Positions 18,919 to 64,000 of a stretch of DNA of 64,000 nucleotides are shown piece after piece. A model generated the notes under the pieces. It saw only the letters and a list, made by a program, of their open reading frames with translations. It was not told the origin of the DNA and made no database searches. Both the position numbers and the translations under genes were made by a program. The stretch comes from Rhodobacterales bacterium (GTDB lineage: Bacteria; Pseudomonadota; Alphaproteobacteria; Rhodobacterales; CAZPXZ01): positions 4,150,419-4,214,418 of the forward strand of contig OZ244777.1 in assembly GCA_965219495.1 (NCBI GenBank). Direction: 5' to 3'. The stretch's first letter is position 1; each line of letters begins with the position of its first letter.

Positions 18919-18921
18919 TAA

Positions 18922-19883
18922 GAGTTTGACCTAAAACTATTGAGAGGCTTCGACATGTGGTATTTTCCATATAGCTTAAACACGAAATATGGAGAGCACC
19001 CATGCCCTGGAATGAAACCACTCGCGCTGAGTATAAGCGCCCCTCGTCTCGTTACGAGACGGATTTGACGGATGCGGAATGGTCACTGTTGGACCCCCAT
19101 CTTCCGGGACCGGCATCGACCGGTCGTCCCCGCACCACGGACCTTCGGGAAGTCTTGAACGCGATCCTGTACATGGCCAGCACAGGTTGCCAATGGCGCG
19201 CCTTACCCAAGGATTTTCCACCGTTTACGACGGTTCAGAACTATTTCTACGGCTGGTCGAAAGGGGGACGAATGGAGGTCATTCTGGCGTCGCTTCGGCG
19301 GGCGGCGCGCCTCGATGCGGGACGCGCGGAAGAGCCAACGGCGGGTGCGATTGATAGCCAGAGCGCCAAGACCACCGAGAGCGGAGGACCGCGCGGTTAC
19401 GACGCCGGCAAGAAGGTGAAGGGCCGCAAGCGCCACCTTGTGGTGGATACGGAAGGGAACCCTCTGACGGTGCAGATTCATGCGGCGAGCATTCAGGATC
19501 GGGACGGCGCGCCGGACGTGTTGGAAGAGGCGGTCGCGTGCTGCCCGACATTGCAGGCGTTGTTCGCGGATGGGGGCTACTCGGGGCCGAAACTTGCGGC
19601 GTCCCTGTGCGACCGCAGCCTGGATCTGGATCTCATCATCGTTTCCAAGCCCCCGGGAAGCAAGGGTTTTGCGGTTCTCCCCCGCCGCTGGGTGGTGGAA
19701 CGGACTCTTGCCTGGCTGAACCGCTGCCGACGATTGGCCAAGGACTTCGAGCGAACCATCGAGAGCGCCAAGGCGTGGGTGCTCTGGGCTGCGGTGCGGC
19801 TCTTGGTCCGTCGCCTCGGGCGGCGCGTAAGTGCCTGTGCAACAATGGGTTAAATGGACTTGCTAAAGTTTTGATTCAGACAC
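18922..19883 (+). mobile_element. IS5-family element (IS1031-like), 962 bp
   Basis: Imperfect IRs GAGTTTGACCTAAAACT / GTGTCTGAATCAAAACT; TAA duplication at 18919-21 and 19884-86. Confidence 0.9.
19002..19853 (+). CDS. IS5-family transposase
   Basis: 283 aa; YETDLTDAEW, GCQWRALPKDFPP, AIDSQS, GKKVKGRKRH, ADGGY, RWVVERTLAWL. Confidence 0.95.
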   Translation: MPWNETTRAEYKRPSSRYETDLTDAEWSLLDPHLPGPASTGRPRTTDLREVLNAILYMASTGCQWRALPKDFPPFTTVQNYFYGWSKGGRMEVILASLRRAARLDAGRAEEPTAGAIDSQSAKTTESGGPRGYDAGKKVKGRKRHLVVDTEGNPLTVQIHAASIQDRDGAPDVLEEAVACCPTLQALFADGGYSGPKLAASLCDRSLDLDLIIVSKPPGSKGFAVLPRRWVVERTLAWLNRCRRLAKDFERTIESAKAWVLWAAVRLLVRRLGRRVSACATMG

Positions 19884-20462: not shown

Positions 20463-21786
20463 AGTATGAAGTCCTACTTTTCATGCTTGACGCGGTTAAT
20501 GGCTGCAACAGCGTTAGCCGAGCTGGTCAGGAAAAACTCCTCTGTAGGGTGCACATTTCATATGGAGTAAAGTAAACCGTTCGTTTGCAATCAGTTAGAC
20601 TAGCACTGGCGCATTCCGAGTCGTCGTTTGGTGACACGATTTCCCGGGTTTGACCGCTTATGCCGGATTTTCGCGAATTTCCTCCGGTTTCCCGGGGCAG
20701 GAGGGGGGGGTGAGTGCTCCTACCAACATGTGGTATATGGATTGAAGTTCACAACAATATCCGGGAGCACTCCGATGACAGTATTGCCGTTTCCTGCGCG
20801 AGAGTCCAGCATTGCGAGAGATGCGACCGCTGTGGAGATCGAGACGATTCTCTCGAAGTTCGGAACGAATGCGCGGGCGCTGTTTGCGTCCCTTGCGGAG
20901 GGGACCCAGTCTGCGGAGGGTTTCGAGCGTTCTCTGGCGGCGGTCTCGAACGCCGCCAGTTGTGCGTTCATGCGCCTGGCGATCGAGTCGGTTGACGAGG
21001 AGAGCGACCGATTGGTGGTGGACGGCAACGTGTATCACCGGATCGGCACATCGCCCCACACGATGCTGAGTTCGTTTGGTCCGGTTTGGTATGAGCGTTC
21101 CCGCTATCGCCGTCGGGGTTGCGATTCCGTTGTCCCGGCGGACCTCCGGTTTGGCCTGATCAACGGCTTTTGGTCGCCGCTTGCGGCGCGGCGTGGGACG
21201 TTGTTGATGGGGCTGGCGCCTGCCGGGGATTGCGTGCGGCTTTCCGAGGAGCTGGGCGGCATGTCGCCGTCTGCGACGGCGCTCAATCACCTCGTGGAAA
21301 CGGTTGGCGAAGCCTGGAATGTCGTGCAGGTCAAGGCCTTGCCCAGCATCCGCGCCGACGAGGACATCCCTGCGGGATCGTCGGCGCTTTCGATTTCGCT
21401 GGACGGCGTCATGCTTGGGATGCGCAACGAGAAAGGTGAAGGGCGGCAAGGAGATGCGGCGGCGACGGGTTTCCGCGAGGCGTCCTGCGGCGCGGTGTCG
21501 TTGCTGGATGCGGATGGCGAGCGTATCCGCACGGTCTATTCCGGGCGGATGCCGGAAGCCGGCAAGGCGACGCTGAAGCGCGGCCTGCTCGAGGAGGCCG
21601 GGCATGTGCTGCACATCCGCCCGGACCTGGAAGTGGTGATCCTCGCCGATGGGGCCGCCGACAACTGGAACTGGTTCTCCGAGGCCTTTCCGGAAGCCAC
21701 CGAAATCCTCGATTTCTGGCACGCCGCCCAGCATCTCAAGGCGGCGCTGGACAGCGCCTGTGGAACCGACAGCATGGAGGCGCGGC

Positions 21787-24293
21787 CTGCCCATTAGTCA
21801 GTTTTTAACTGGACGTATCCAATTGTACAGCGGGCTTTCCTCGCCATTCTTGATCAGGCGCTCCATTGCCTGCGTCGCGACAGCCAGGCGGGTGTAGCCT
21901 TCCCAGATCACCTGATGACCGGGTGGTGCGTCATGCTTCCGGTTGAGGTAGCCGCCCAGCCGCGCGATCAGCAGGATCGCGCAGCCAAGCGACAGCGGTG
22001 GAACCTCCCGGCCTTTGGCAACCGCCGTTGGAGCGCGGTCGCCGGGTTGCGCGGCAGTCGAGGGAAGAGCAATCCCGCGTTCGATCGCAAAATCGCACAA
22101 CACCGCGATTTCAACCTTCGAGAACATGGTTTCGGCAAGCAGTTCCGGGGTCTCGCGCCCGAGCAGGGTCAGCGCGGCCAGCCGGTAGGCGATGATCGCG
22201 TTGATGGTGACCGCGCGCTTGATCCGTTCCGCTGTCGTATGGGCAATCTTCTCGACATCGCAACCGCTCTTGAGGATCCGGTGATAGTCCTCGATGCGCC
22301 AGCGAAGGCCATACAGATCCACCACCTCCCGGGCCTGTTGGTCGGTCGTCACCGACACGGTGGTGATCAAGAGCCATTCGATCCCCTCCGCGCCTTTCGG
22401 CGGTTCCGCCTCGTGCACATGGACCACCGACAGCGGCGCCGGCGCCGCGCCAAGGCGCGCTTTCTGTTTCGCCGGCATCGGCATCTCGATGCGCTCCCAG
22501 CGCAGCGCGACGCGCGCCAGGCGCGCCTCGCGGCCCGCGAACGCTTTCTGACCGCGCGCCGCCTTGCGCGCAGAGGCCCGGTCAACCTTGACCTCCAGCG
22601 CCGCCCGAACCGGCGTCGCACGCATCGTCGCGAACAGCTTGCCGCCATCGCCGAGAACACGGTCGTGCTTCGCCCGCACGAGCAGCGCCGCGCCACCCTC
22701 ATCGCGATGCGCCGCGAACAGTTCAGCCAAGTCACCCTCGCGATCCATGACCGAAATCACCCGCGTATCCGCGAGATCCGCCACCAGCGCATTGGTGTCG
22801 CGCCAGCCCCGCAGCCAGCGCTGCGTCTTCTTCTCCGCCGCCGGCTTGTTCTTGTCCGACTTCCCGTCCGGGGCATCGAATTCGATGCGCGGGATGCCGA
22901 GCGGCACCCCCTCCGCGTTCACTGCAAAGGTCGTGTGCATATGCAGCCCCAACGTGCCCGAAGCCCCCTTGTTCTTCGAGATCACCCCGAGACCCGAACA
23001 GCCATGATGGGTCGCGAAGTTCAGGTCGCTGCCGTCCTGGATGCAAAGCACCGTCGGGTGTCCCCGCATGCGACGCAGCGTCCGCCCCCGGTGCGTCGCC
23101 AGCATCGCCTCCGGCGTCAACGCCGACTCGTCAGGCCGCTCGATCATTCGATAATATCCCTGCACCGCCGCCGCATCGCCACAGGCGGCGGAAAAGAACG
23201 TCTTCGCCGGCGCCGCCGCCTGGATTGCGGCGCTTTTCACCAGCCGCTTGCACAGCGCCGCATTGCCGACCGGCGCAGCGCCGAATTCATTTGCCGCCCA
23301 GTTCTCCCGGTCCAGCCCGTCACCCGGGCCAAGTACCCGCGGGGTCGGCCGCGGCGGCGCAGCGCCCAGCCCGGCAACCCCCAACTGCCGTCGCCAGTTC
23401 CGGGCCAGCGGGTACATGTAGATCGCCTTCGCCGGCACGCGGGCGCCCGCCGCAGCGCGCCGGCCGCGGCCCGCCGTCTCGCCGACATAGGTCCAGTTCG
23501 CCGCCCGCAGGCTGACCCCGCTCTGTCCCGGCCCGACAAAGGTCTCGACCAGAAGCGGTGCGACACCATAGCGCGCCGCGTAGTCACCGGCCATCGCACG
23601 CAGGCACAGGCTGAGCGCCTTCGAGGCCAGGTTCCGGCACCCGGTCCCGGGACGGACAAGAAAACGTGACAGCCCCACTACCCGGTCAAGATGCGCCTCG
23701 CGGCGGCCCGCGTCCCATCCGATCCAGCGGTCGCGCGGCTGCAGCGCCAGCGCCGAGGCGGCGAACAGGCAGCCGCCGAGCCAGCCGTGCTCCGAGCCGA
23801 TCAGATACCGAAGCTGCCGCCCCACATGCACAACCGCCCCCTGCGGATGTTCCCGCCGCATCATCTCGTTGAACCGGCGCCGATCCGCTTCCTCATCGAC
23901 CCGCAGCGCCACAAGACCGTCGATCCGGTCGACACGATCCGGAACATCGACCGCCGCCGGAACCGGCTCGGCCAAGCCTTGCGCCGTCCGCCCGACACCG
24001 GAACCGGGACCTGGCGGCGGCAGCACAATACCCCCCGCACGCTCAAGCTCCCGCAGCGCCGACAGGCATCCCGCCTCCTGCAGCCGGCCACGCGGATCGC
24101 GGAAATCGAAACGCGCGCAAACCTCGCGCACCAAAGCCGAGCGACCGGAAAACACATCCGGCGCCGGAAGCGCCGCCAATGTCTCCCGTCCTGCTTCCGA
24201 AAACAGGGTGCGGCGAATCAAATTCTGTGCAAGCATGCACCCTGATAACAGGTGAATTAAAAAAAGTCCAGCAGCAAAAAGCGCAATGGGCAG
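21787..24293 (-). mobile_element. IS4-family element, copy 1 (2507 bp)
   Basis: Terminal CTGCCCATT / AATGGGCAG; 8-bp flanks GGCGCGGC / GCCGCGGC (1 mismatch). Confidence 0.92.
21798..24236 (-). CDS. DUF4338 (DruA-like)-IS4 (Tn5/IS50-like) transposase fusion, 812 aa
   Basis: N-terminal RDRWIGW..SRFLV..NLAS..LLVETFV..AANWTYVGET; C-terminal IQDGSDL, VMDREGD, YGLRWRIEDYHRILKSGC, ARLGGYL...PG..VIWEG; start MLAQNL lies inside the IR. Confidence 0.88.
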   Translation of the reverse strand: MLAQNLIRRTLFSEAGRETLAALPAPDVFSGRSALVREVCARFDFRDPRGRLQEAGCLSALRELERAGGIVLPPPGPGSGVGRTAQGLAEPVPAAVDVPDRVDRIDGLVALRVDEEADRRRFNEMMRREHPQGAVVHVGRQLRYLIGSEHGWLGGCLFAASALALQPRDRWIGWDAGRREAHLDRVVGLSRFLVRPGTGCRNLASKALSLCLRAMAGDYAARYGVAPLLVETFVGPGQSGVSLRAANWTYVGETAGRGRRAAAGARVPAKAIYMYPLARNWRRQLGVAGLGAAPPRPTPRVLGPGDGLDRENWAANEFGAAPVGNAALCKRLVKSAAIQAAAPAKTFFSAACGDAAAVQGYYRMIERPDESALTPEAMLATHRGRTLRRMRGHPTVLCIQDGSDLNFATHHGCSGLGVISKNKGASGTLGLHMHTTFAVNAEGVPLGIPRIEFDAPDGKSDKNKPAAEKKTQRWLRGWRDTNALVADLADTRVISVMDREGDLAELFAAHRDEGGAALLVRAKHDRVLGDGGKLFATMRATPVRAALEVKVDRASARKAARGQKAFAGREARLARVALRWERIEMPMPAKQKARLGAAPAPLSVVHVHEAEPPKGAEGIEWLLITTVSVTTDQQAREVVDLYGLRWRIEDYHRILKSGCDVEKIAHTTAERIKRAVTINAIIAYRLAALTLLGRETPELLAETMFSKVEIAVLCDFAIERGIALPSTAAQPGDRAPTAVAKGREVPPLSLGCAILLIARLGGYLNRKHDAPPGHQVIWEGYTRLAVATQAMERLIKNGEESPLYNWIRPVKN

Positions 24294-24781
24294 GCCGCGG
24301 CGCCGGTTCGAGAGGCTCCGGGAAAAGCTGCGCGACGAGGAAGACGGCGTCGAGCGGATCGTGCGGGCGCTCCGCCATCTGGCCAGCAAACATCCGCGCC
24401 GGAAAGCCATCGCCCGGGAACTGGCCTTCTTCCGCAAGAACCGGCAACGCATGCGCTACGCCGCGTTCCAGAACCGGAAGCTGCCGATCGGCTCGGGGGT
24501 GGTCGAGGCTGCCAACAAGGTTCTCGTGACCCAGCGGCTTAAATGCTCCGGGATGCGCTGGAAGCTCGACGGAACCGGCCAATATGTTCTGAGCGTGCGG
24601 GCCTTATGGAAATCCCACCGATTTGAAGCGGCCTGGAGCGAAATCATCACCGCCCTGGAGCCTCCGGAATTCACGTTTCAAAATCGCAATAATGTCGTAA
24701 TAGCTGAAGTATTGCACTAAGCGCGCCCTTCAACTATTTACTCCATAGAAAATTTTCTCCCCCTCTGTATGCGCTTCACCT

Positions 24782-40568: not shown

Positions 40569-40914
40569 TGATTCGTCTCTCCTGCGACATAACAAGAGAG
40601 ACAAACCCCCCGGGGATGCTTGTGCAAGCTCCCCGGGGGAACCGATCGACATTCATGCACGGAATCTGATCGGATCCACCCGATCCGGAATCAATCTATG
40701 TGAGCACGCACATTCGTCTCCATGAAGGGAGTATGGAATCGCACGAGAAACGCGTCAACACATGCGACAACACCAGAAAAGAAATGCTTGACACCCAATG
40801 GCCCTGTATGGCCGCATGGTCGAAGACTAGGAACCCCGTAACACCTTGGCTAACATGACTAAATGGCACTGTCTGGCATCGGTCGGCTTCCTCTGGCCCA
40901 ATATTGGAACGAGT

Positions 40915-40960
<46 letters not shown>

Positions 40961-41078
40961 GATAAACCATTGAAAATAAACACGTTTCCAGGGTTTTCGC
41001 TTCTCCAATCGGTTCATGACAATTCGATTGGGAATCTATTGGGAATCACGCGGAATCAATGTTCTGCGCATCTATATA

Positions 41079-45940: not shown

Positions 45941-48637
45941 TTACAGCAGCACGGCTTCGACACCGGCTTCATAAGAAGGACGCTTTCCCAATTGCTTGCG
46001 GCGCTCAAGTGCCATCTTGGCAAACGCCTCAAGTTCCGCGATGTCCCTGTCAACCTGGTCGGGCTCTGGAAGGTCTGGCGGCAGGTCTGGGGCTCGGTCA
46101 TGTCCGGAATAGTGAGAGCACCGCTTCATGCCTTCAAAAATAGCGGGGTAGTCGGCTGCGGGATCGACACAGGCTTGTTCGATGCTTTTCGTCATGACCT
46201 CCGGTCGGAAACGCTGCACAACATTATTGAACAAGATTTCTTCGACAATGCGCTCCCAGGATTCCCGCATTTTCGCGTAGAGCCCAACAATGCTGGACCG
46301 GAATTGCTGGTCTGTATGGTCGTACCCATCACGAATGAGTGCTGCAAAGTCTTGTCGGACATTGTGAAGGCGCTCGAGAACACGCTTCATCTGCCAAGGC
46401 TTTTGGGAGTCATCGATCAGGCCGAACCGGTCGTTCCCTGCGCTGCTCATCCATTCGCAGTGCCGGCCAACCCGGGCACGGCGGGCCTCTGTCCACAGCA
46501 TGTGATGGAACAGGATGTTGTGGGTGAAGACAATCACCTGACGGCCATTGGAAGCTTCCTCCGCGAGGCGTTCGGCCACAGCTTGCATGCGGCTATGATC
46601 TAGCGAAGAAACCGGGTCATCGACAATGATGCCGTGATCGCTGCCGATTTCCTGCAGTTCTGCCAGAAAGCAGGCGAGTGCGAGGGCGCGCTGTTCGCCC
46701 TCACTCAGGACATCGCTGTTGTTGGCGACGCGCTGCTGGGCATCGAGCGCAATCTCGATGATGCTCTCGCCACCTCGGCCGCGATCAGCCAGATCCAGCG
46801 GAATATGGGTAAGCCGCAACCTCTCCAGTTCCTTTTTCAAGGCAGCTCGTAGGCTCGGAGTGAGGATCTCACGACGACGGTCGGTGATTCTGCGCGTGAT
46901 CGCGGTCAAGCGGCACTGCTGTGTACAGGCGTGGAGCCGGCGACGCTCCTCCAGACGGTTGCGCCGCTCGACGATGATTTCGATCTGTTCGCTTAGCTGC
47001 TTCTGGTCCGCGAGTTCGGCGTGACGTGCCTTCAGCCTGGCCAGAGCCTCCTCGTCACGTTCGGCGATTTCCAGCTCGGCAATCTCGGCATCGAGGCGGC
47101 CGATTTCGTCTTCGATGAACGGAGTTGGCGAGGCGGGTAGCGGATCCAGATCCTGGAGAGCGTCGTACCGATTTTCGCGCAGGGCGCCCTTGACAGCTTC
47201 CAGACGCTCGCCGGCCTTCTCGACGAAGGTAGCCATCGTGGTCGCGCCCTCCTTGCAGGCAACCGAAAGGGCAGCGTAACCGGCAAGCAAGATTTCGATT
47301 TCGCGGCAGGGCCTAACTCTGAATGCCAGGAGCCTGTCGCGATGCTCGGCAATAGCCCGATCAGCGGCGACGCTCTCCTCGGCGGCTCGGCCAGCGATGT
47401 AGTCGTCGAATGCCGCCATGCGGGTCGTAGCATTCTCGTCGAGATCCTGCTGACACAGGACGCACAGGCCTCCGTTGGCGAGCTGGGGAGGCGGCACATC
47501 CGGAAATACGGTGACTGCAAACTCCCGCGCATATGTGAGCATCTGGCGCCAAGTCTCAGATCCGAGATCGGAGATGGGCTGATCACTGAAGAGATCTCTG
47601 GCAGCAGCTTCCACGGCTCGATTTGTAGTCTCGGCCTCCTGATGTTTTCGACGGATGGCGGCGAGCGCCCCATCGGCGAGATCGGCCTCGATCGCCGAAA
47701 CTTCTTCCCTGACAGTTTCGAGGGCCCGCTTTGCCTCGGACCGCAGCCGGATCATGACCTGCGGGTCTTGCTTCAGTTTTTCTTCAGCAGCGTCGAACTC
47801 AGCCTGCTTCTCAGCCGTCCAGCCACCGAGTTCGCGCAGGTGGGGTTCGCTTGGAAGGTCCGCGAGCGCGGTCTGAGTGACGAGGCTGGCAAGCGCTGCG
47901 TGAACGGTCGAGCCTTCGTGGTACCCTTCCGGCAGGCGGGTATTGACCGCTGCGTTGACGGCGTCCAGCCGTTCTCTGAAGTCTTCGTCGAGTGCCCGGC
48001 AGGTGAGGCCGAGCTTGTTCATGAGATCGAGTTCGTAAGGGAGGAACTCGATCTTTCGTTCCTTGTCGACATAGACGCGTGCGGTAGCGGTGTCGAATAC
48101 TGAGATTCGCGACAGCTCGCCGGGTGGGTCCTGGTCAGCGTACCAGGTCACCTCTTCCTTGGGTTGATCGTCGCCCCCGACACGAAAGGCGACAGCCACT
48201 TCGGTGCGATCTGCAGCCGCGCCGTCATACACGTTGCCGCGAAGTGAAACCGGGCTCAGCGATCGGCAGAGCTGCCTTGCGATACGGCAGTAGCCACTCT
48301 TGCCGGAAGCGTTAGCGCCATAAACGAGAGTGACACCGTTGACCGCAAATTGAAGAGGCGGCTGGTTGGAGGACAGCCGGTCAACATGGCGGATGGGGCC
48401 AAGCGAGGCGAGCACGGTTGTGGGGTTGTTGCTGGCCGCTTGATTGAGATGCTCCTCGGCAAGCGGTACAGGATCCGAAACGTTTTCGGCGGGGAGGCCT
48501 GCGGCCCGCTGAATTTGCAGCCGGAGTGCCGAAAGGTCGTCGGTCGTCAGTTCGCCCTGCGAGGCGAGGCGACGCAGGGCGTCCTGTTGCCAGGGCAATC
48601 TGCCGGCGGCCCAGCCGAGTAGTTCCTCATGCGCCAT
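45941..48637 (-). CDS. RloC/PrrC-like ABC ATPase (AAA_13-type) with C-terminal HEPN-like domain
   Basis: 898 aa; GANASGKS, CVLC hook, LSEGEQRAL, DDPVSSLDH, VFTH, RCSHYSGHD. Confidence 0.75.
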   Translation of the reverse strand: MAHEELLGWAAGRLPWQQDALRRLASQGELTTDDLSALRLQIQRAAGLPAENVSDPVPLAEEHLNQAASNNPTTVLASLGPIRHVDRLSSNQPPLQFAVNGVTLVYGANASGKSGYCRIARQLCRSLSPVSLRGNVYDGAAADRTEVAVAFRVGGDDQPKEEVTWYADQDPPGELSRISVFDTATARVYVDKERKIEFLPYELDLMNKLGLTCRALDEDFRERLDAVNAAVNTRLPEGYHEGSTVHAALASLVTQTALADLPSEPHLRELGGWTAEKQAEFDAAEEKLKQDPQVMIRLRSEAKRALETVREEVSAIEADLADGALAAIRRKHQEAETTNRAVEAAARDLFSDQPISDLGSETWRQMLTYAREFAVTVFPDVPPPQLANGGLCVLCQQDLDENATTRMAAFDDYIAGRAAEESVAADRAIAEHRDRLLAFRVRPCREIEILLAGYAALSVACKEGATTMATFVEKAGERLEAVKGALRENRYDALQDLDPLPASPTPFIEDEIGRLDAEIAELEIAERDEEALARLKARHAELADQKQLSEQIEIIVERRNRLEERRRLHACTQQCRLTAITRRITDRRREILTPSLRAALKKELERLRLTHIPLDLADRGRGGESIIEIALDAQQRVANNSDVLSEGEQRALALACFLAELQEIGSDHGIIVDDPVSSLDHSRMQAVAERLAEEASNGRQVIVFTHNILFHHMLWTEARRARVGRHCEWMSSAGNDRFGLIDDSQKPWQMKRVLERLHNVRQDFAALIRDGYDHTDQQFRSSIVGLYAKMRESWERIVEEILFNNVVQRFRPEVMTKSIEQACVDPAADYPAIFEGMKRCSHYSGHDRAPDLPPDLPEPDQVDRDIAELEAFAKMALERRKQLGKRPSYEAGVEAVLL

Positions 48638-50735: not shown

Positions 50736-53700
50736 CTAAGCTGCCGCCGTCCGCCGCTCCGGCGGAATCGAGACGTCCACCACGCAGATCGAGATCAGCC
50801 ACCGCTCTTCCTCAGGCAGCGACTCCTCAAGCCGCCGCCTAACGTCCTCGGACGTCTCCGGCGACCAATCGCCGTGCTTGGTCGGTCGGCACTTCTCCGT
50901 GTCTCCGAACCAGAGCACCAGATAGATTCCGAAGCCGGCCGCGCCGGGATCCCGCGTGTACTTCGCAATCAATTGCTCCCCGACAGCCTCCCAGAGATCG
51001 TCATGGCAGCTTCGCTTGATCTCCACCGGAACATTGAAACCCGCGAAGCTCACTCGAATGTCCGCCCGCTTATCCTCGGCGTAGACGCTTTCCGGCTGCG
51101 CGTCGATCCCGAGACGCGCGAGCCGCAGCTCGAGATCTGATAACAGCGCGTCCCGGCATGCGTCCTCGGGCCTCGGATCCGTTGGACGCCTGTACCCGTC
51201 CAAGTTCCAGTGCTGCCGCCAGTCCGACGTACTTCCGTCCCGAATCCTCCTGGCGAGACCCTCCAGTTCGTCCAAGACCAGCGCCGCCAAATCCGACGGG
51301 TTCGCCGGCCTGCGGTTGGCCAGCGTCTCGAGCACGCTGCCAATGTCGCAATGCCGGTACTCGTCCTCCCTGCGCTTTCCCGCCTGCCGCCCGCGCGCGT
51401 CCCTGATCGCCGGCAACCACGGTGCCGCCTCCGGTTTCTCTTCGAGCGCCGCAAGTGCTTCCCCTGCCGACCTGCTCGTGTCGTCCCCGAACTTGGCGAT
51501 CAGTTCCGCCACGAACCAGAACGCCCTGTTCGTCAGGATGTTCCTGCGGTACGCCGCCCCAAGCGCGGCGACCAGCGGTTCAATGTCACTCGCGGATAAA
51601 CTCCGCCAGACATCCGATCGCGGGACGCTCGCCAATTCCACGAACATCACCAGCCAAGTCAGCCCTTCGTCGTCGTCCGCCAAAGCCCGGATGTCCGCCC
51701 CGTAGCGGTCCGGTGCCGTGAAGTATCCGGCAGACACCCAGCAGGCCCGCTCCCCCGCCGGCTGGCCCCCTCTTTCGAGCCGCTCAACGATCACCCGATC
51801 CACGTCCGCCTGGCCGCATCGCTCCAGCGCCGCGTGCAGCGCCCAGCAGAGCGACACCAGCGACGCCGCTGTATCCGCCCTCGGGAACCGCTTAAGAACC
51901 GGCAGCGCCGCCAGCGCGGCGACCTCGCGGTGGTCGTCGACATCCGCCAATTCGCGTAGTTCCCGCGCTTGCCGCACGCCCGACGCGAGTTTCCGCGCCG
52001 CAGTGCGGCAAACCACGTCGGCCACCAGCGCCGGATCGTCGCGGAGCAGCGCTCGGAACCACTCCGGCCGGTAGATCCCCGCCCCGTCCGTGCTGTCCGG
52101 GTCCACCAGCCGGCGCGGGAGCGTGTAGAGAATCGTCAACGCCAGCCGGATCTGCCAGTCCTCCAGGTTGCCCACCGCGAGCCGCCCCGACCGTTCCAAG
52201 CTGTGCAGTCCGGCCGCGAACGGCAGCACGCGCCAATCGACTCGATCTCTGTCGGCCAGCCGCACCACATCGTCGCCACCGGGCAGATCTTCGCCCCCGA
52301 CCGCCTCTTCGAGCGCGGCCACCAGAACATCGACCAGTTCCTCCGAACCGCCAACCAGACTCCCCAGACGGTCCCGGGGCGTATTCCCCGCAGCGTCCTC
52401 GCGGTTCCCAAGATACGCCTCGGCCACCCGATGCAGGGCCTCGGGCGTCGCGCGCAACGCCGCATTCCATGCCGCCGCCATGTCCTCCCGCGAGTCCTCC
52501 TCCTGCGCATCCGCCAGCGATGCCCCCTCCGCGCTGACCTCGCGCGGGGTGCCCGGTCCTTCTCGGCGTCGCACAACCGCCTCGAACCGATTCAGCAACG
52601 GCTCGTTGTCCGCCAGCTCCGCCCGGACGCTCTCCACCGTCAGCCCGCGCGCGCCGCTCCTCTCCGCCACGCTGTCGAGCAGTTCCCCGAGATAGAAGGA
52701 CGCGGCCCGTCCGTCCTCGGCGCCGAGCGCCATCTCGAGGCACCACGGCGCGTAGTCGAACGGGCGTGCCCCGAACAGCCGCCGGTCGACCAGTCCCAAG
52801 CAGTCTTCGCCGTTCTCGAGGGACCTCTCCACACCCCGCACGATCAGGACCTTTAGCGCGTCCTGGTTCCACCGCAGATCGAACCCTACGAGGCTCCTTT
52901 CCCGCTCCGGCAGACCGAGCCCCGGATCCGAAACCACGCCCAGCCAGTCGTACATGCGGTCCGGTGCAATCTCGGCGTCCTTGTCCCTGAAGATTTGTTT
53001 CAGCAGCTCCACCGGCAGATTTCCCATCCGGGTGTACAGCGCCACGCGGCGGACCATGAACGGCCTGAAATCCTCGAACCTGGCCACAATCCCGTCCAGC
53101 AGGTCGGCCAGCTGTTCGGGTGCGGACTCCCTCGGGACATGGTTCACCCAGAATCGCGAGTACTCACCACCTGTCTCCACCAGCTTCGGTGCCCTCAGGT
53201 ACCGCAACGCTTCGGCAACCAACAGCACCTCCGGGTAGAGCGCCTTCAGCAGAATGCCCAGCAGTTCGTCCTGGGGATCGTCCAGCCTCCCCTCGTGGAT
53301 CTCGGCCGCCATCCCCGCGAGCGCATCGAAGCCGAGTCGATCCTGCACCGCATAGCCGGTCAACACGTCGAGTGCGGCGCACCGGACGCCCTGCCCCCAG
53401 CTCGGATCGCGCACCGTCTCCTCCAGAACGCACGCGAGCGCCGGCAACGGCTCCCCGTCCGCCAGCAACTGCATCAGCAGCATCACGTAGGACTGGTGCT
53501 CGTGGTCGCGCTCCGGGTCCGACAGGATCTCCAGGAACATTCCTTCAAGCTCCGCCGATACGATCGCGCCGATGCCGGACACCTTCCCCATCGATCGCGA
53601 GCACCACGGATTCCACGCAGTCTCCCGGCGCAGGTTTCGCACAATCTCCCGCTTCTCGTCGGCCGAATAGGTGTCGCGTTCGCCCGCGTAGATCAGCCCG

Positions 53701-54830
53701 CTCGCGTCGAACCGGCTGAGCCTTTTCCGCGACGCCTTGTTGTGCACCGCCAGCCAGGAGACGAAGTTCTGGAAGGCCGCCAGCAGACCGCCGTCCGACC
53801 CGGTGATCAGGGCAAGAACCCGCTCCAGCGGCAGCCCTGCGTCCAAGAGCCCCGAGACATGCTTGGCCGCGAGGAACTCGGCGATCTGCCGGTGCGCCGG
53901 CGCCAGCCTCCCCTCCGACACGCCCTCGAACAGGCGCGTGCCCAGCACCTGCCACGGCCCGCGCCGCGGGTCGCCGTCGACCTCTGCGACCGATGGGTAG
54001 TCGGCCTTGGGCACCGCCCGGTCCGGCAGCGTGTAGCCCGCCCCGCCGGAAAGCAGTTGCCCGGCGCACAGCCGACCGGCCGCCTCAATGAGGGACTCGG
54101 TGTCGGTGGCAGCCGGGTTTGCGGCCCGATGCTCCCCGTTCGTCTCCCGGGCGAGCATGCGGCAGGCGTTCTCGAACGTCTCCGTGCGGGAATCCGGCCA
54201 CTTTCCCACCGCCACCGATTTCGCGAGCAGGTCGAGGTTCTGCGGGTTCCGCAGCAGCCGGTCGACTCCCCGCTTCCGCGCTGCGGCGATGAACCCGTCG
54301 CCGTCCTCCACGCCGTGGTTCTTAGCGAGAATGTCCTTGATGTCGCGTTCGGACAGGGGATCCAGGCGGACCACCACGACCGTCCCGTCCGGTGAGACCT
54401 TCTCCAATCCTTCCTTGTCGTTCGCCGCCAGCCAGTCGGCCCACCGGCACGACAGCCGAAAGCGCGGGCGTCCCAGACCGTCGAGCTTTCTTCGGACCTC
54501 GTCTAGCGGCGTCCGCCCGTCCTCCGTGCCGGCGCGGGACTCGTCGAGCCCGTCCAGAAACAAGGTGACGCCATGCCACTCTGGATCGTCGTCAAAGGTC
54601 CGAAAATCCCGCACGGTCACGTACGCGGCCCCTTCCCTGGCGGCCTCGCTCCTGAACGCCGTCGTCTTGCCAGCACCCGGTTCCGCGATCAAAACGTACG
54701 CCCCCGCACCCGCGTGGTCGATCAGCACCGTCGACTTTCCGGCCGCCCGCTCTCGCTCGCTCTCGTCCACCACCGTGCAGGTTCTCGGAGCAACGTAGCT
54801 CGTTGGCGCGCCCATGTGCTGCTCACTCAT
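50736..54830 (-). CDS. STAND/NACHT NTPase with C-terminal PD-(D/E)xK nuclease-like domain
   Basis: 1364 aa; AEPGAGKTT, LFLDGLDE, LSCR, NPQNL, HRQIAEFLAA; C-terminal KRADI...VEIK...QLIAKY...GIYLVLWFG. Confidence 0.85.
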   Translation of the reverse strand: MSEQHMGAPTSYVAPRTCTVVDESERERAAGKSTVLIDHAGAGAYVLIAEPGAGKTTAFRSEAAREGAAYVTVRDFRTFDDDPEWHGVTLFLDGLDESRAGTEDGRTPLDEVRRKLDGLGRPRFRLSCRWADWLAANDKEGLEKVSPDGTVVVVRLDPLSERDIKDILAKNHGVEDGDGFIAAARKRGVDRLLRNPQNLDLLAKSVAVGKWPDSRTETFENACRMLARETNGEHRAANPAATDTESLIEAAGRLCAGQLLSGGAGYTLPDRAVPKADYPSVAEVDGDPRRGPWQVLGTRLFEGVSEGRLAPAHRQIAEFLAAKHVSGLLDAGLPLERVLALITGSDGGLLAAFQNFVSWLAVHNKASRKRLSRFDASGLIYAGERDTYSADEKREIVRNLRRETAWNPWCSRSMGKVSGIGAIVSAELEGMFLEILSDPERDHEHQSYVMLLMQLLADGEPLPALACVLEETVRDPSWGQGVRCAALDVLTGYAVQDRLGFDALAGMAAEIHEGRLDDPQDELLGILLKALYPEVLLVAEALRYLRAPKLVETGGEYSRFWVNHVPRESAPEQLADLLDGIVARFEDFRPFMVRRVALYTRMGNLPVELLKQIFRDKDAEIAPDRMYDWLGVVSDPGLGLPERERSLVGFDLRWNQDALKVLIVRGVERSLENGEDCLGLVDRRLFGARPFDYAPWCLEMALGAEDGRAASFYLGELLDSVAERSGARGLTVESVRAELADNEPLLNRFEAVVRRREGPGTPREVSAEGASLADAQEEDSREDMAAAWNAALRATPEALHRVAEAYLGNREDAAGNTPRDRLGSLVGGSEELVDVLVAALEEAVGGEDLPGGDDVVRLADRDRVDWRVLPFAAGLHSLERSGRLAVGNLEDWQIRLALTILYTLPRRLVDPDSTDGAGIYRPEWFRALLRDDPALVADVVCRTAARKLASGVRQARELRELADVDDHREVAALAALPVLKRFPRADTAASLVSLCWALHAALERCGQADVDRVIVERLERGGQPAGERACWVSAGYFTAPDRYGADIRALADDDEGLTWLVMFVELASVPRSDVWRSLSASDIEPLVAALGAAYRRNILTNRAFWFVAELIAKFGDDTSRSAGEALAALEEKPEAAPWLPAIRDARGRQAGKRREDEYRHCDIGSVLETLANRRPANPSDLAALVLDELEGLARRIRDGSTSDWRQHWNLDGYRRPTDPRPEDACRDALLSDLELRLARLGIDAQPESVYAEDKRADIRVSFAGFNVPVEIKRSCHDDLWEAVGEQLIAKYTRDPGAAGFGIYLVLWFGDTEKCRPTKHGDWSPETSEDVRRRLEESLPEEERWLISICVVDVSIPPERRTAAA

Positions 54831-55108
54831 CGCTCGTCTTCCTAACCTCCAGCTCCTTCACGCATTGCCAGGGACCTACTGGGACCGCGTTCTCAGATCG
54901 CGCCGCGTGCTCTCCTGCGCGCGCTGCCTTCGCAAGCCCGCGTCCAGACCAACCGGACCATCTCGTCACGTGATAGATCGCAACCCTTCCCGTCGGGGAC
55001 ACTCGGGCCGGCGGTAGTAGAGCCCCGGCGCCAGGTAGCCCGCTACGCAGTCCACCGGTTGTCACCTTCACTCAACCCTCGTCAGATGCCAACGCACACT
55101 TGCCGCAT

Positions 55109-55879
55109 TCAGGGCACTTCTTGGAATCGGATCTCGAAACGCGCGTCGTCGAGTACTGCCCAAAGCATCGGCAACTCCCGATACTCCTCGCTCAAACTCC
55201 CTACCACCGTCCCGTCCACTCGTGCACCGACCAACAACCGCGTGATGGCGTGCTTTGGGAATTCGAAGCAATGCAATGGCTTGTGTCCCACTTCCACAAC
55301 TGAGCAATTACCACTTTCGTTAGCTGAGTTCCCTTCCGGCTCCAAACCGCCCAGACACTTGGCAACCCTTACTTCTTCCTCGTAGGCCCATTCCAACGGC
55401 TTCGTCAGAAACAATCTCTGCCATTTCTCGTAATGGCTCAGAACGAAATGATGCGTAGCACCAACCACGACACCTTCCGTGAAGTTCGAAACGAGCGCTG
55501 CATTTGCTCTGACCCGAGAATAGATAACAGTCCCGAATTGGGCGGGAATCATATTTCTCCTCACATCCATGAAACCCGCAAGCTCCGTATCGATCTCCAG
55601 TACGGCACCATGGTGACCATCAGCATAGTGCGCCCACATCAACGCATTTGTGGATGAACGGGTAAGCGAAAGAATTGCGGTTCTTTCCTCCCACAAGTGG
55701 TTCTTCATGTCCGTTCGAACTTTCTCAAAGACTCCGCTTATCGGGTCCGCTTCTGCCCCCAATGGCATACGTGGTCTATCAAATGGGTCATTGAAGAACC
55801 CAGGCCGCCTAAATTCCATCTGTCCAACAGAAATGATCCTTCGGGCTGACTCAATTGAAGTGTATTTGTAGAGGATCAT
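55109..55879 (-). CDS. DUF2971 domain protein
   Basis: LYKY, FNDPFD, LMWAHYADGHHG, TKPLEWAYEEEVR. Confidence 0.85.
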   Translation of the reverse strand: MILYKYTSIESARRIISVGQMEFRRPGFFNDPFDRPRMPLGAEADPISGVFEKVRTDMKNHLWEERTAILSLTRSSTNALMWAHYADGHHGAVLEIDTELAGFMDVRRNMIPAQFGTVIYSRVRANAALVSNFTEGVVVGATHHFVLSHYEKWQRLFLTKPLEWAYEEEVRVAKCLGGLEPEGNSANESGNCSVVEVGHKPLHCFEFPKHAITRLLVGARVDGTVVGSLSEEYRELPMLWAVLDDARFEIRFQEVP

Positions 55880-56928
55880 CGCAGTGGCTCCATGCAGTCG
55901 GCACTACCCAAAAGCAGTGCTTGACCGCTTTCATCTGGAGTTCGCCACGTATTGCGGGCAGTCGCTACTCGTCCCATCGCTTGTCCCAACCCGTCCGAAT
56001 CGTTGAAGCCAGGTACATCGAGATTTCCTGTATGCCGTTTGGTCGCTCATGTGGCAGCCTGCACGTTGCAGAAACGTGCACTCCGCCCCCTATTCTTGCT
56101 CCACGCTATCTTCGTCATGGCGCACCTTCGAGAGACCCGCAGCCACCAGTCCAGCCGGCACTGCGACGATTCTCAACCCACACATCAGGATTATGAACGT
56201 GAATATCTTGCCACCTGCCGTGATGGGATAAACATCACCGTTGACCTGCCCCTGGCGACTGGTCCAGTGCGGTAGTCAACCCGTCCTTCCGGTCACTCAT
56301 TGCCAGTAGGCCTTCATCACCGCCAGCCTCGATCACGCGATCGAAGAACTCTCCGTATTCGACCTCCTTCTCGCGGTCTGCGGGTTCCGTGTGGACCACC
56401 TCGCCCTCCACCGTGTACCGAAACGTCCCTTTCACGCTAACCACGATGTGTCAAACGACAACTATGATGGCCACCAGCGACAACTATCATGCCGCACATT
56501 TGCGGGGCGATTTGGTCGGCGTTTTTCCGGTTCCCGGTTCCTGGCGGGTTGGCGTCTTGTCGCCGGACGATCCCATTATTCGTGCATGACGTTCGCCGTA
56601 CCGGTTCCCTGAAGGGCGCGATGCGGGCGACCGTGCGCAATGCGTGTGTTTCTTGACGGTGTCAGGATCCGGTGACGCCGATTGCCGGAGCGGCGCCCTG
56701 GTTTCGGCGTGTGGCACCCTGCCTGCGGGGGTTGGCGGCTTGCTGCCTGGCCGGGTGGGTGGATGAGGCGTAGCCGGGTTCACGGAACTCGATGGCGCCA
56801 CCGCTTGGCGGGTGCTTCGGATGCCCGCGATATGACGGCTTGCGGGGAGGCCGGCATGGCTGCCGGTCGGCAGCGGGGGCGGCGCCGGATTTCGGGCTGC
56901 CCCCGGCAGGGGGTTGAGCTGGTGCGGG

Positions 56929-59435
56929 CTGCCCATTAGTCAGTTTTTAACTGGACGTATCCAATTGTACAGCGGGCTTTCCTCGCCATTCTTGATCAGG
57001 CGCTCCATTGCCTGCGTCGCGACAGCCAGGCGGGTGTAGCCTTCCCAGATCACCTGATGACCGGGTGGTGCGTCATGCTTCCGGTTGAGGTAGCCGCCCA
57101 GCCGCGCGATCAGCAGGATCGCGCAGCCAAGCGACAGCGGTGGAACCTCCCGGCCTTTGGCAACCGCCGTTGGAGCGCGGTCGCCGGGTTGCGCGGCAGT
57201 CGAGGGAAGAGCAATCCCGCGTTCGATCGCAAAATCGCACAACACCGCGATTTCAACCTTCGAGAACATGGTTTCGGCAAGCAGTTCCGGGGTCTCGCGC
57301 CCGAGCAGGGTCAGCGCGGCCAGCCGGTAGGCGATGATCGCGTTGATGGTGACCGCGCGCTTGATCCGTTCCGCTGTCGTATGGGCAATCTTCTCGACAT
57401 CGCAACCGCTCTTGAGGATCCGGTGATAGTCCTCGATGCGCCAGCGAAGGCCATACAGATCCACCACCTCCCGGGCCTGTTGGTCGGTCGTCACCGACAC
57501 GGTGGTGATCAAGAGCCATTCGATCCCCTCCGCGCCTTTCGGCGGTTCCGCCTCGTGCACATGGACCACCGACAGCGGCGCCGGCGCCGCGCCAAGGCGC
57601 GCTTTCTGTTTCGCCGGCATCGGCATCTCGATGCGCTCCCAGCGCAGCGCGACGCGCGCCAGGCGCGCCTCGCGGCCCGCGAACGCTTTCTGACCGCGCG
57701 CCGCCTTGCGCGCAGAGGCCCGGTCAACCTTGACCTCCAGCGCCGCCCGAACCGGCGTCGCACGCATCGTCGCGAACAGCTTGCCGCCATCGCCGAGAAC
57801 ACGGTCGTGCTTCGCCCGCACGAGCAGCGCCGCGCCACCCTCATCGCGATGCGCCGCGAACAGTTCAGCCAAGTCACCCTCGCGATCCATGACCGAAATC
57901 ACCCGCGTATCCGCGAGATCCGCCACCAGCGCATTGGTGTCGCGCCAGCCCCGCAGCCAGCGCTGCGTCTTCTTCTCCGCCGCCGGCTTGTTCTTGTCCG
58001 ACTTCCCGTCCGGGGCATCGAATTCGATGCGCGGGATGCCGAGCGGCACCCCCTCCGCGTTCACTGCAAAGGTCGTGTGCATATGCAGCCCCAACGTGCC
58101 CGAAGCCCCCTTGTTCTTCGAGATCACCCCGAGACCCGAACAGCCATGATGGGTCGCGAAGTTCAGGTCGCTGCCGTCCTGGATGCAAAGCACCGTCGGG
58201 TGTCCCCGCATGCGACGCAGCGTCCGCCCCCGGTGCGTCGCCAGCATCGCCTCCGGCGTCAACGCCGACTCGTCAGGCCGCTCGATCATTCGATAATATC
58301 CCTGCACCGCCGCCGCATCGCCACAGGCGGCGGAAAAGAACGTCTTCGCCGGCGCCGCCGCCTGGATTGCGGCGCTTTTCACCAGCCGCTTGCACAGCGC
58401 CGCATTGCCGACCGGCGCAGCGCCGAATTCATTTGCCGCCCAGTTCTCCCGGTCCAGCCCGTCACCCGGGCCAAGTACCCGCGGGGTCGGCCGCGGCGGC
58501 GCAGCGCCCAGCCCGGCAACCCCCAACTGCCGTCGCCAGTTCCGGGCCAGCGGGTACATGTAGATCGCCTTCGCCGGCACGCGGGCGCCCGCCGCAGCGC
58601 GCCGGCCGCGGCCCGCCGTCTCGCCGACATAGGTCCAGTTCGCCGCCCGCAGGCTGACCCCGCTCTGTCCCGGCCCGACAAAGGTCTCGACCAGAAGCGG
58701 TGCGACACCATAGCGCGCCGCGTAGTCACCGGCCATCGCACGCAGGCACAGGCTGAGCGCCTTCGAGGCCAGGTTCCGGCACCCGGTCCCGGGACGGACA
58801 AGAAAACGTGACAGCCCCACTACCCGGTCAAGATGCGCCTCGCGGCGGCCCGCGTCCCATCCGATCCAGCGGTCGCGCGGCTGCAGCGCCAGCGCCGAGG
58901 CGGCGAACAGGCAGCCGCCGAGCCAGCCGTGCTCCGAGCCGATCAGATACCGAAGCTGCCGCCCCACATGCACAACCGCCCCCTGCGGATGTTCCCGCCG
59001 CATCATCTCGTTGAACCGGCGCCGATCCGCTTCCTCATCGACCCGCAGCGCCACAAGACCGTCGATCCGGTCGACACGATCCGGAACATCGACCGCCGCC
59101 GGAACCGGCTCGGCCAAGCCTTGCGCCGTCCGCCCGACACCGGAACCGGGACCTGGCGGCGGCAGCACAATACCCCCCGCACGCTCAAGCTCCCGCAGCG
59201 CCGACAGGCATCCCGCCTCCTGCAGCCGGCCACGCGGATCGCGGAAATCGAAACGCGCGCAAACCTCGCGCACCAAAGCCGAGCGACCGGAAAACACATC
59301 CGGCGCCGGAAGCGCCGCCAATGTCTCCCGTCCTGCTTCCGAAAACAGGGTGCGGCGAATCAAATTCTGTGCAAGCATGCACCCTGATAACAGGTGAATT
59401 AAAAAAAGTCCAGCAGCAAAAAGCGCAATGGGCAG
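56929..59435 (-). mobile_element. IS4-family element, copy 2 (2507 bp)
   Basis: Same ends as copy 1; exact 8-bp duplication GGTGCGGG. Confidence 0.93.
56940..59378 (-). CDS. DUF4338 (DruA-like)-IS4 transposase fusion, copy 2
   Basis: Translation appears identical to 21798-24236. Confidence 0.88.
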   Translation of the reverse strand: MLAQNLIRRTLFSEAGRETLAALPAPDVFSGRSALVREVCARFDFRDPRGRLQEAGCLSALRELERAGGIVLPPPGPGSGVGRTAQGLAEPVPAAVDVPDRVDRIDGLVALRVDEEADRRRFNEMMRREHPQGAVVHVGRQLRYLIGSEHGWLGGCLFAASALALQPRDRWIGWDAGRREAHLDRVVGLSRFLVRPGTGCRNLASKALSLCLRAMAGDYAARYGVAPLLVETFVGPGQSGVSLRAANWTYVGETAGRGRRAAAGARVPAKAIYMYPLARNWRRQLGVAGLGAAPPRPTPRVLGPGDGLDRENWAANEFGAAPVGNAALCKRLVKSAAIQAAAPAKTFFSAACGDAAAVQGYYRMIERPDESALTPEAMLATHRGRTLRRMRGHPTVLCIQDGSDLNFATHHGCSGLGVISKNKGASGTLGLHMHTTFAVNAEGVPLGIPRIEFDAPDGKSDKNKPAAEKKTQRWLRGWRDTNALVADLADTRVISVMDREGDLAELFAAHRDEGGAALLVRAKHDRVLGDGGKLFATMRATPVRAALEVKVDRASARKAARGQKAFAGREARLARVALRWERIEMPMPAKQKARLGAAPAPLSVVHVHEAEPPKGAEGIEWLLITTVSVTTDQQAREVVDLYGLRWRIEDYHRILKSGCDVEKIAHTTAERIKRAVTINAIIAYRLAALTLLGRETPELLAETMFSKVEIAVLCDFAIERGIALPSTAAQPGDRAPTAVAKGREVPPLSLGCAILLIARLGGYLNRKHDAPPGHQVIWEGYTRLAVATQAMERLIKNGEESPLYNWIRPVKN

Positions 59436-59798
59436 GGTGCGGGCCCGGTTCTCGAGTACGCCGGAGGGCCGGGTCATTTCCACCGGCGAGTTCGCGGCCT
59501 GATCACCCCGGGCGCGATGCGCTCGACATGCGCGGGCGTCGGTTCGGGTGGAAGTGGGGGCTGCTGGTGGGGGCGCCGATGGCGGCTCTACCGCGGTCGG
59601 CATTTGCGTTCGCGGCGCGCCGGCGGTTGCGGCATGTGGGGTTTGGTCGGCATGCGCCGGCGATGCGGTCTTCGGGGTGGTATGGGTGCGAGCCCGCGAA
59701 CCGCATGACGGCAGCCGAAGGCTGTCCGCTTCCTCCTCCGACCGGCTTCGGCGCAGGGTCCTGCCCGGCGCTGCCGGGCGGGCGTGCGGCGTTGGTGG

Positions 59799-62915: not shown

Positions 62916-63205
62916 TTAGTCGGGGTCTTGAATCCCCTTCGCGAGACAGGCTCTGAGTTTCCTTGCTTGGCAAATCGGCGATAGTTCGTCGTCCTCCAGA
63001 ACCTTCAGGTTGAATTCGAAGAATTGATTCTTCACCAGCGGGTACGCATCGGCTGCGCACCACTTGTGCCATATCATCGTTGCCAGTTCTGCTAACGCGC
63101 TGAAGTAGTCCTCATCCATTCCCTGGGGGAAACCGCCCAGTTCGATATCCGCCAACCGCGTAGGGAGGTCATTGTGAGCGATGATCTTGTCGCGGGCAGG
63201 TCTTA
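62916..63205 (-). pseudogene. C-terminal piece of an AbiU2/HEPN-like gene cut by IS5
   Basis: RDKIIAHND R-x4-H motif; frame begins at the IS5 end. Confidence 0.55.
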
Positions 63206-64000
63206 GAGTTTGACCCAAAACTATTGAGTGGCTTCGACATGTGGTATTTTCCATACAGTTTAAACACGAAATATGGAGAGCACCCATGCCTTGGAATGAA
63301 ACCACTTGCGTTGAGTATAAGCGCCCCTCGTCTCGTTACGAGTCGGATTTGATGGATGCGGAATGGTCGCTGTTGGAACCCCATCTTCCGGGACCGGCTT
63401 CGACCGGTCGTCCCCGCACCACGGACCTTCGGGAAGTCTTGAACGCGATCCTGTACATGGCCAGCACAGGTTGCCAATGGCGCGCCTTACCCAAGGATTT
63501 TCCACCGTTTACGATGGTTCAGAACTATTTCTACGGCTGGTCGAAAGGGGGACGGATGGGGGTCATTCTGCGGTCGCTTCGGCGGGCGGCGCGTCTCGAT
63601 GCGGGACGCGCGGAAGAGCCGACGGCGGGTGCGATTGATAGCCAGAGCGCCAAGACCACCGAGAGCGGAGGACCGCGCGGTTACGACGCCGGCAAGAAGG
63701 TGAAGGGCCGCAAGCGCCACCTTGTGGTGGATACGGAAGGGAACCCGCTGGCGGTTCAGATTCATGCGGCGAGCATTCAGGATCGGGACAGCGCGCCGGA
63801 CGTGTTGGAAGAGGCGGCCGCGTGCTGCCCGACGTTGCAGGCGTTGTTCGCGGATGGGGGCTACACGGGCTCGAAACTTGCGGCGTCCCTGCGCGACCGC
63901 AGCCTGGATCTGGATCTCATCATCGTTTCCAAGCCCCCGGGAAGCAAGGGTTTTGCGGTTCTCCCCCGCCGTTGGGTGGTGGAACGGACTCTTGCCTGGC
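63206..64000 (+). mobile_element. IS5-family element, copy 2 (runs off the window; transposase starts at 63286)
   Basis: Same left end GAGTTTGACC and a closely related transposase to 19002-19853, with scattered substitutions. Confidence 0.9.

What the first reader, a model, noticed from the sequence alone, without database searches (positions are those of the whole stretch)
50736..54830. NLR-like STAND protein with the nuclease at the C-terminus
Seen: the NACHT domain starts almost at the N-terminus, followed by about 900 aa of helical repeats and a terminal D...EIK nuclease-like domain. Known: characterised Avs/bNACHT proteins usually place the effector N-terminal to the NTPase. Inference: an inverted-architecture antiviral STAND whose sensor lies between NTPase and nuclease.
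Basis: partly seen in the sequence, partly recalled or inferred. Interest (0 to 1): 0.65.

Follow-up and report, generated by a model that had tools for sequence, protein, structure and literature searches.

The report
Erebus-like NACHT antiphage nuclease gene
This is an intact single gene for a bacterial NLR-like immune protein (NACHT ATPase, helical sensor, DNA-cutting tail); it belongs to the already named Erebus (EruA)/Avs10 anti-phage family, so the unusual tail-end nuclease is real but not new.

Summary
The NACHT NTPase starts about residue 36, with Walker A GAGKTT and Walker B DGLDE. An all-helical solenoid follows to about residue 1160, and a PD-(D/E)xK nuclease fold sits at the C-terminus (E1247, D1257, E1270-I-K1272). 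These residues are invariant in relatives down to 29% identity. AlphaFold models match NLRC4/NLRP3 for the N-terminal part and Can1, PspGI and Hjc for the tail.

The architecture is not undescribed. The protein matches NCBIfam NF058535, "NACHT domain-containing antiphage protein EruA" (Erebus), end to end (E 5e-235, 783 bits). That is below the 1000-bit equivalog cut-off. Lee et al. 2026 group Erebus/Hypnos/bNACHT64 as Avs10, which is triggered by phage major capsid protein. Kibby et al. 2022 already noted C-terminal effectors after repeat sensors in bacterial NACHT proteins.

The family is very large (2943 clusters at 50% identity). The window's copy sits in a well-supported "solo" clade that lacks the DUF4143 ATPase partner coupled to most sampled relatives at 40% identity or less. 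The upstream DUF2971 gene is unrelated. The sensor is highly diverged from a bona fide EruA, so the trigger is inferred, not shown.

Verdict: a new member of a known kind, of low interest.

The parts
50736..54830 (-). Complete EruA-like (Erebus-like) gene, 1364 codons plus stop
   Evidence: ORF. NF058535 hit covers protein 36-1354 against profile 18-1318/1318, E 5.3e-235, 783.5 bits. DNA homology to the closest relatives ends within about 12 bp of the ORF ends.
53571..54725 (-). NACHT NTPase module (residues ~36-420: NBD, helical domain, winged helix). Walker A 49-57, Walker B DGLDE 93-97, sensor-1-like R129, NPQNL 195-199, H313-R314.
   Evidence: Motifs are invariant in 35 sequences down to 29% identity. 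The AF2 model shows beta-alpha NBD strands at 44-48, 90-95, 124-128 and 152-156. Foldseek top hits are NLRC4 4kxf and 8fvu, and NLRP3 8swk.
51351..53570 (-). Central all-alpha solenoid (residues ~421-1160), the presumed sensor, with a disordered linker at 756-790
   Evidence: AF2 secondary structure is all helices. Foldseek matches HEAT/ARM solenoids such as importin-beta, CAND1 and SF3b155. It is the least conserved region: about 25% identity to distant family members, against 52% for the NBD and 48% for the nuclease.
50739..51170 (-). C-terminal PD-(D/E)xK nuclease-like domain (residues ~1221-1364). E1222, E1247, D1257, E1270, K1272.
   Evidence: Residues are invariant or nearly so. The AF2 core is alpha-beta-beta-beta-alpha-beta. 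Foldseek hits are Can1, PspGI, Cdn1, Hjc, Can2, SfsA and OkrAI.
54831..55108 (-). 278-bp upstream intergenic region with purine-rich RBS-like stretches (GGAGG, AGGAAG) 6-20 nt before the ATG
   Evidence: Sequence read. No sigma-70 consensus promoter was found. The region is not conserved with relatives.

Best explanation
The gene encodes a single-protein, NLR-like antiphage receptor of the Erebus (EruA)/Avs10 type.

Proposed mechanism:
1. In the resting state the NACHT NTPase is locked by the helical sensor.
2. During infection the central alpha-solenoid binds a phage protein. By analogy with Avs10 this is most likely the HK97-fold major capsid protein.
3. Binding releases the NACHT module to exchange nucleotide and oligomerise.
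4. Oligomerisation brings the C-terminal PD-(D/E)xK domains together into an active nuclease.
5. The nuclease degrades DNA and aborts the infection.

Shown here: the three-part architecture, the intact and family-wide conserved catalytic residues of both enzymatic modules, full-length homology to a family named as antiphage, the solo (single-gene) state, and the defence-island and mobile-element context.

Inferred: the trigger, oligomerisation, the DNA substrate, and the abortive outcome.
For: Family membership:
- Full-length match to NF058535 antiphage_EruA.
- Collinear hhalign match over 1200 columns to a bona fide EruA equivalog, probability 100%, E 4e-46 (the equivalog scored 1339 bits).

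Architecture and residues:
- The NACHT signature DGLDE and Walker A are conserved.
- Fold matches are NLRC4/NLRP3 for the N-terminal part and PD-(D/E)xK nucleases for the tail.
- E1247, D1257, E1270 and K1272 are invariant.
- The sensor is the fastest-evolving part, as expected for a phage-binding surface.

Context:
- Four clade relatives stand alone next to HEPN-Toprim, Mrr, type I R-M, AbiJ, integrases and transposases.
- Plasmid homologues sit beside Ppl, Abi and RES genes.
- In the window the neighbours are PDC-S06 and PDC-S31 candidates and IS elements.

Literature:
- Avs10 (Erebus/Hypnos/bNACHT64) is activated by the major capsid protein, and effector mutations abolish killing (PMC12803255).
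Against: - The score of 783 bits is below the 1000-bit equivalog cut-off.
- BLASTP against a true EruA equivalog aligns only the NACHT region (28%) and the nuclease region (32%), not the sensor. Trigger specificity therefore cannot be transferred with confidence.
- PADLOC v2 and the local Pfam-A give no hit.
- Fold-search E-values for the nuclease are weak.
- I could not read the paper that defined Erebus (van den Berg 2024).
Confidence: 0.8

Rival explanations
1. Same chassis, different trigger. The protein is an antiphage NACHT-nuclease, but its diverged sensor recognises a phage protein other than the major capsid protein, or guards a host factor.
For: The sensor region is only about 25% identical to other family members and cannot be aligned by BLASTP to a bona fide EruA. 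The window's clade is a separate, strongly supported lineage. Lee et al. show that different Avs sensor clusters map to different phage proteins.
Against: Erebus, Hypnos and bNACHT64 are grouped in one family, Avs10, that is reported to sense the capsid protein. This protein scores far higher on the Erebus model (783 bits) than on the Hypnos model (137 bits). Profile alignment is collinear through the sensor.
Confidence: 0.3
2. It needs a second component. Like most sampled relatives it would work with a DUF4143/AAA_14 ATPase, or with the upstream DUF2971 gene, so on its own it is incomplete or inactive.
For: 67 of the 69 sampled full-length loci outside the window's clade (31.9-39.6% identity) have an overlapping upstream AAA_14+DUF4143 gene. 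A pseudogenised copy of such an ATPase lies elsewhere in this genome. DUF2971 is on the same strand, 278 bp upstream.
Against: The other 13 full-length members of the window's clade also lack the ATPase, and the clade has 100% SH-aLRT support. A bona fide EruA equivalog and the Pantoea, Vibrio and Ralstonia plasmid homologues are also solo. DUF2971 occurs next to none of 84 homologous loci. The distant ATPase copy is broken by two stops and has no EruA-like neighbour.
Confidence: 0.07
3. It is a decaying or non-defensive passenger of a mobile island, with no current function, or with a role in competition between mobile elements rather than in phage defence.
For: It lies between two 99.8% identical IS4-DruA copies in an IS-rich, pseudogene-rich region.
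Against: The 4.1-kb frame is intact with every catalytic residue preserved. Relatives at 56-79% identity keep the full length in several phyla, which indicates purifying selection.
Confidence: 0.05

Closest known systems
Erebus (EruA; NCBIfam NF058535; Pfam PF28130/DUF8371), grouped with Hypnos (HyoA) and bNACHT64 as Avs10 (Lee et al. 2026, PMC12803255; van den Berg et al. 2024, not readable here)
   Same: Same length class (~1320-1400 aa) and the same collinear architecture: N-terminal NACHT, helical sensor, C-terminal PD-(D/E)xK domain with D...E-x-K. Single gene, with a defence-island and mobile-element context.
   Different: It scores below the equivalog cut-off (783 against 1000 bits). 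It is 28-32% identical to a true equivalog, and only in the two enzymatic modules. The sensor is strongly diverged. It sits in a separate clade found mainly in uncultured metagenome-assembled genomes of Acidobacteriota, Chloroflexota and Pseudomonadota.
Partner-coupled EruA-like genes (AAA_14+DUF4143 'PDC-S01'-type ATPase overlapping the start of the NACHT gene)
   Same: The large protein is homologous over its full length (31.9-39.6% identity).
   Different: There is no ATPase gene upstream here, nor in any of the other 13 members of the window's clade.
Avs1-4 (Gao et al. 2022) and most bNACHT proteins (Kibby et al. 2023)
   Same: STAND NTPase plus a helical-repeat sensor plus a nuclease-type effector. 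The presumed logic is the same: binding of a phage protein leads to oligomerisation and effector activation.
   Different: Their effector is N-terminal, whereas here it is C-terminal. There is no PADLOC v2 hit to the Avs or bNACHT models.
NLRC4/NLRP3 (animal NLRs)
   Same: They are the best structural matches of the N-terminal 1200 residues, and they share the NACHT D[GAS]hDE signature.
   Different: Their sensor is LRR rather than an alpha-solenoid, their effector is an N-terminal CARD/PYD adaptor, and they have no nuclease.

Membership tests
EruA / Erebus (NCBIfam NF058535, equivalog) | Full-length match to the family profile | tested here: met
   Protein 36-1354 aligns to profile 18-1318/1318, E 5.3e-235. 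hhalign against a 1339-bit equivalog gives probability 100% over 1200 columns.
EruA / Erebus (NCBIfam NF058535, equivalog) | Score at or above the curated equivalog cut-off (1000 bits) | tested here: not met
   It scores 783.5 bits. The whole clade scores 774-836 bits. I therefore file it as a member of the wider EruA-like/DUF8371 family, not as an EruA equivalog.
EruA / Erebus (NCBIfam NF058535, equivalog) | Antiphage phenotype as a single gene | not testable with these tools
   Only the genomic solo state was tested. No neighbour is conserved in clade loci.
Avs10 (Lee et al. 2026) | Activation by the HK97-fold major capsid protein, with effector-dependent cell death | not testable with these tools
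   No multimer co-folding or wet assay was available. The paper's supplementary tables are not held.
NACHT clade of STAND NTPases | Walker A, a Walker B with the D[GAS]hDE signature, and a C-terminal winged-helix extension | tested here: met
   GAGKTT is at 52-57 and DGLDE at 93-97, both invariant. The signature definition is quoted from Kibby 2022. Foldseek top hits are NLRC4 and NLRP3. The Pfam NACHT model itself gave no hit.
PD-(D/E)xK nuclease superfamily | An alpha-beta-beta-beta-alpha-beta core with D...(D/E)xK on strands 2-3 | tested here: met
   D1257 precedes strand 2 and E1270-I-K1272 lies on strand 3 of the model. These residues are invariant. Foldseek hits are Can1, PspGI, Cdn1, Hjc and Can2, best E 6.5e-4. 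Catalysis was not tested.
Avs1-4 / canonical bNACHT layout | Effector N-terminal to the NTPase | tested here: not met
   Only about 35 disordered residues precede the NBD. There is no PADLOC v2 hit.
DUF4143-ATPase-coupled EruA-like pairs | An AAA_14+DUF4143 gene overlapping the 5' end of the NACHT gene | tested here: not met
   Upstream is a 278-bp gap and then a DUF2971 gene. The only close ATPase homologue in the genome is a distant pseudogene.

The most novel reading that the evidence does not exclude
The window's solo clade would be a lineage that shed the DUF4143 ATPase partner and re-tuned its sensor. It would then recognise a phage component other than the capsid protein, for instance one typical of phages of uncultured bacteria such as sponge symbionts. 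That would offer a natural comparison of partner-dependent and partner-independent activation within one NLR-like family.
Probability: 0.15. Interest if true: 0.45.

Novelty: new member of a known kind. Interest (0 to 1): 0.2.

Why it matters
It matters little beyond annotation. The gene can be labelled an Erebus-like (EruA-family, Avs10-type) NACHT antiphage nuclease rather than a new system.

Two modest points of value remain:
- The family is far larger and more widely spread than its narrow equivalog model suggests. It has 2943 clusters at 50% identity, and about 8% of sampled genomes in this phylum carry it.
- The family splits into solo and DUF4143-ATPase-coupled forms, and this copy lies in a cleanly solo clade. 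That split could help in asking what the ATPase partner does.

Tried and rejected
- PADLOC v2 and the local Pfam-A gave no usable hit for the protein. A sequence search of the PDB gave nothing.
- Literature searches for 'EruA', 'HyoA' and 'Eru'/'Hyo' found nothing relevant. The link came through 'Erebus'/'Hypnos', prompted by an earlier agent's note.
- The van den Berg 2024 and Kibby 2023 journal papers are not held. The supplements of Lee et al. are not held either.
- Megablast against plasmids found nothing.
- DUF2971 as a partner is rejected, because it is absent from all 84 homologous loci.
- A DUF4143 partner in the window is rejected.
- I tested whether cultured-organism plasmid homologues (Pantoea, Vibrio, Ralstonia) are true equivalogs. 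They are not, at 776-792 bits.
- The full protein was too long for the representative search, so residues 165-1364 were used instead.
- The organism's name could not be obtained.
Full report
**Observation**

The minus-strand frame 50736-54830 is open for 1364 codons. The search found more than 1260 homologues. The 120 best listed are of about the same length (1295-1416 aa) and 56-98% identical, so the gene is real.

- The sequence carries Walker A AEPGAGKTT (residues 49-57) and Walker B LFLDGLDES (90-98).
- DGLDE is the D[GAS]hDE signature that separates NACHT from other STAND NTPases. The definition is quoted in Kibby et al. 2022 (bioRxiv 10.1101/2022.07.19.500537).
- Near the C-terminus the sequence reads RADIRVSFAGFNVPVEIKRS, which is D1257...E1270-I-K1272.
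- In an alignment of 35 family members down to 29% identity, G52, G54, D93, D96, E97, R99, E1222, D1257, E1270 and K1272 are invariant. K55 and E1247 are nearly invariant.

**Structure**

An AlphaFold2 model of residues 1100-1364 (mean pLDDT 75) gives a helical lead-in. It is followed by an alpha-beta-beta-beta-alpha-beta core, with D1257 just before strand 2 and E1270/K1272 on strand 3.

- Foldseek against the PDB returns PD-(D/E)xK enzymes: Can1 (6sce, E 6.5e-4), PspGI, Cdn1, Hjc resolvases, Can2, SfsA and OkrAI.
- The E-values are weak, but the kind of hit is consistent and agrees with the motif.

A model of residues 1-1200 (pLDDT 76) shows three regions:

- About 35 disordered residues come first.
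- A beta-alpha NBD follows.
- Helical and winged-helix domains run to about residue 420, and an uninterrupted all-helical solenoid runs to about 1160.

Its best PDB matches are NLRC4 and NLRP3, followed by HEAT/ARM solenoids. There is no N-terminal effector.

**What it is**

NCBIfam NF058535, "NACHT domain-containing antiphage protein EruA", matches from profile position 18 to 1318 of 1318 (E 5.3e-235, 783.5 bits). The paralogous HyoA model scores 137 bits.

- The curated equivalog cut-off is 1000 bits, so this is a relative, not an equivalog.
- Close relatives score 774-836 bits. More distant family members score 784-945.
- One genome of the same phylum holds a true equivalog at 1339 bits.
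- Against that protein, BLASTP aligns only the NACHT part (28% identity) and the nuclease part (32%, with the D...EIK motif conserved).
- Profile alignment is nevertheless collinear over 1200 columns with probability 100%.
- Region by region, the NBD (52%) and nuclease (48%) are conserved across the family, whereas the solenoid is at about 25%. This is the pattern expected of a rapidly evolving sensor between two constrained enzymatic modules.

**Literature**

- EruA and HyoA stand for Erebus and Hypnos. Lee et al. 2026 cite van den Berg et al. 2024 for them, but that paper is not held here.
- Lee et al. 2026 (PMC12803255) group Erebus/Hypnos/bNACHT64 as Avs10. [quoted passage not shown] They also report that effector mutations abolish killing in all families tested.
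- The supplementary discussion of Kibby et al. 2022 states that some bacterial NACHT effectors lie at the extreme C-terminus, after tandem repeats. It suggests they occupy the same spatial position as N-terminal effectors.

**Distribution and context**

- The family has 2943 clusters at 50% identity with E <= 0.001.
- A pattern scan of species-representative genomes gave at least 554 confirmed loci. The best 80 are all metagenome-assembled genomes and span more than ten phyla.
- In the window's own phylum, 16 of 201 sampled genomes carry a match.
- Of the 69 sampled full-length loci outside the window's clade (31.9-39.6% identity), 67 have an overlapping upstream AAA_14+DUF4143 ATPase gene.
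- The window's protein falls in a clade of 14 (SH-aLRT 100), all without that partner.
- Solo copies also occur elsewhere: the true equivalog L097 and the plasmid homologues in Pantoea, Vibrio and Ralstonia.
- Neighbours of four clade relatives differ completely. They include HEPN-Toprim, Mrr, type I R-M, AbiJ, integrases and transposases.
- DNA similarity to the nearest relatives stops within about 12 bp of the ORF ends.
- The DUF2971 gene 278 bp upstream matches the PADLOC candidate PDC-S31 and is next to none of 84 homologous loci. It is an independent cassette.

**Mechanism**

The best reading is a single-protein abortive-infection sensor:

1. The solenoid binds a phage protein, most likely the major capsid protein.
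2. The NACHT module oligomerises.
3. The C-terminal PD-(D/E)xK domains are assembled into an active DNase.

Architecture, residue conservation, family membership and context are shown. The trigger, oligomerisation and substrate are inferred. The main rival is the same chassis with a different trigger, because the sensor is so diverged.

**Verdict**

This is a new member of a known kind, of low interest.

Noticed in passing
window 21779-24309 and 56921-59451: Two direct copies (2531 bp, 99.76% identical) of a gene that fuses a DruA-like N-terminal domain to an IS4-family DDE transposase (884 and 887 aa). They bracket about 32.6 kb that includes the EruA-like gene, PDC-S06, DUF2971 and the transposon studied by earlier agents. 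This could be a composite-transposon-like unit. A DruA-DDE gene also lies near the closest homologue (L002).
   Followed up: partly
window 45941-48637 (-): An 898-aa AAA_13/SMC-like ATPase matches the PADLOC candidate PDC-S06 end to end (E 8e-166). It is a second candidate defence gene, 2 kb downstream of the EruA-like gene.
   Followed up: partly
window 55109-55879 (-): A DUF2971 protein matches the PADLOC candidate PDC-S31 (E 3e-21). It is not linked to EruA-like genes in any other locus.
   Followed up: yes
G000:C1:2784348-2785328 (outside the window; locus L086): A pseudogenised AAA_14/DUF4143 ATPase (one TGA and one TAG inside) is 51% identical to the partner of EruA-like genes in other genomes. 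No EruA-like gene is detectable elsewhere in this genome, so it may be the remnant of a lost two-gene cassette.
   Followed up: partly
loci L014-L085 (for example L015:3733-5004 with L015:4986-9005): An AAA_14+DUF4143 ATPase is tightly coupled to EruA-like NACHT genes, with overlaps or gaps of -24 to +9 nt. This holds in 67 of the 69 sampled full-length loci outside the window's clade, across many phyla. It agrees with earlier agents' notes. I found no paper describing it, but I ran no search aimed at it.
   Followed up: partly
window 13529-13583 and 40912-40966: A 55-bp direct repeat (91% identical) looks like the 3' end of a tRNA gene, yet ARAGORN finds no tRNA in the window. These are probably att-site remnants that mark the edges of a 27-kb integrated element.
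   Followed up: no
window 18916-19716 and 63200-64000: A second repeated element (801 bp, 96% identical, running to the window end) is probably another IS copy.
   Followed up: no
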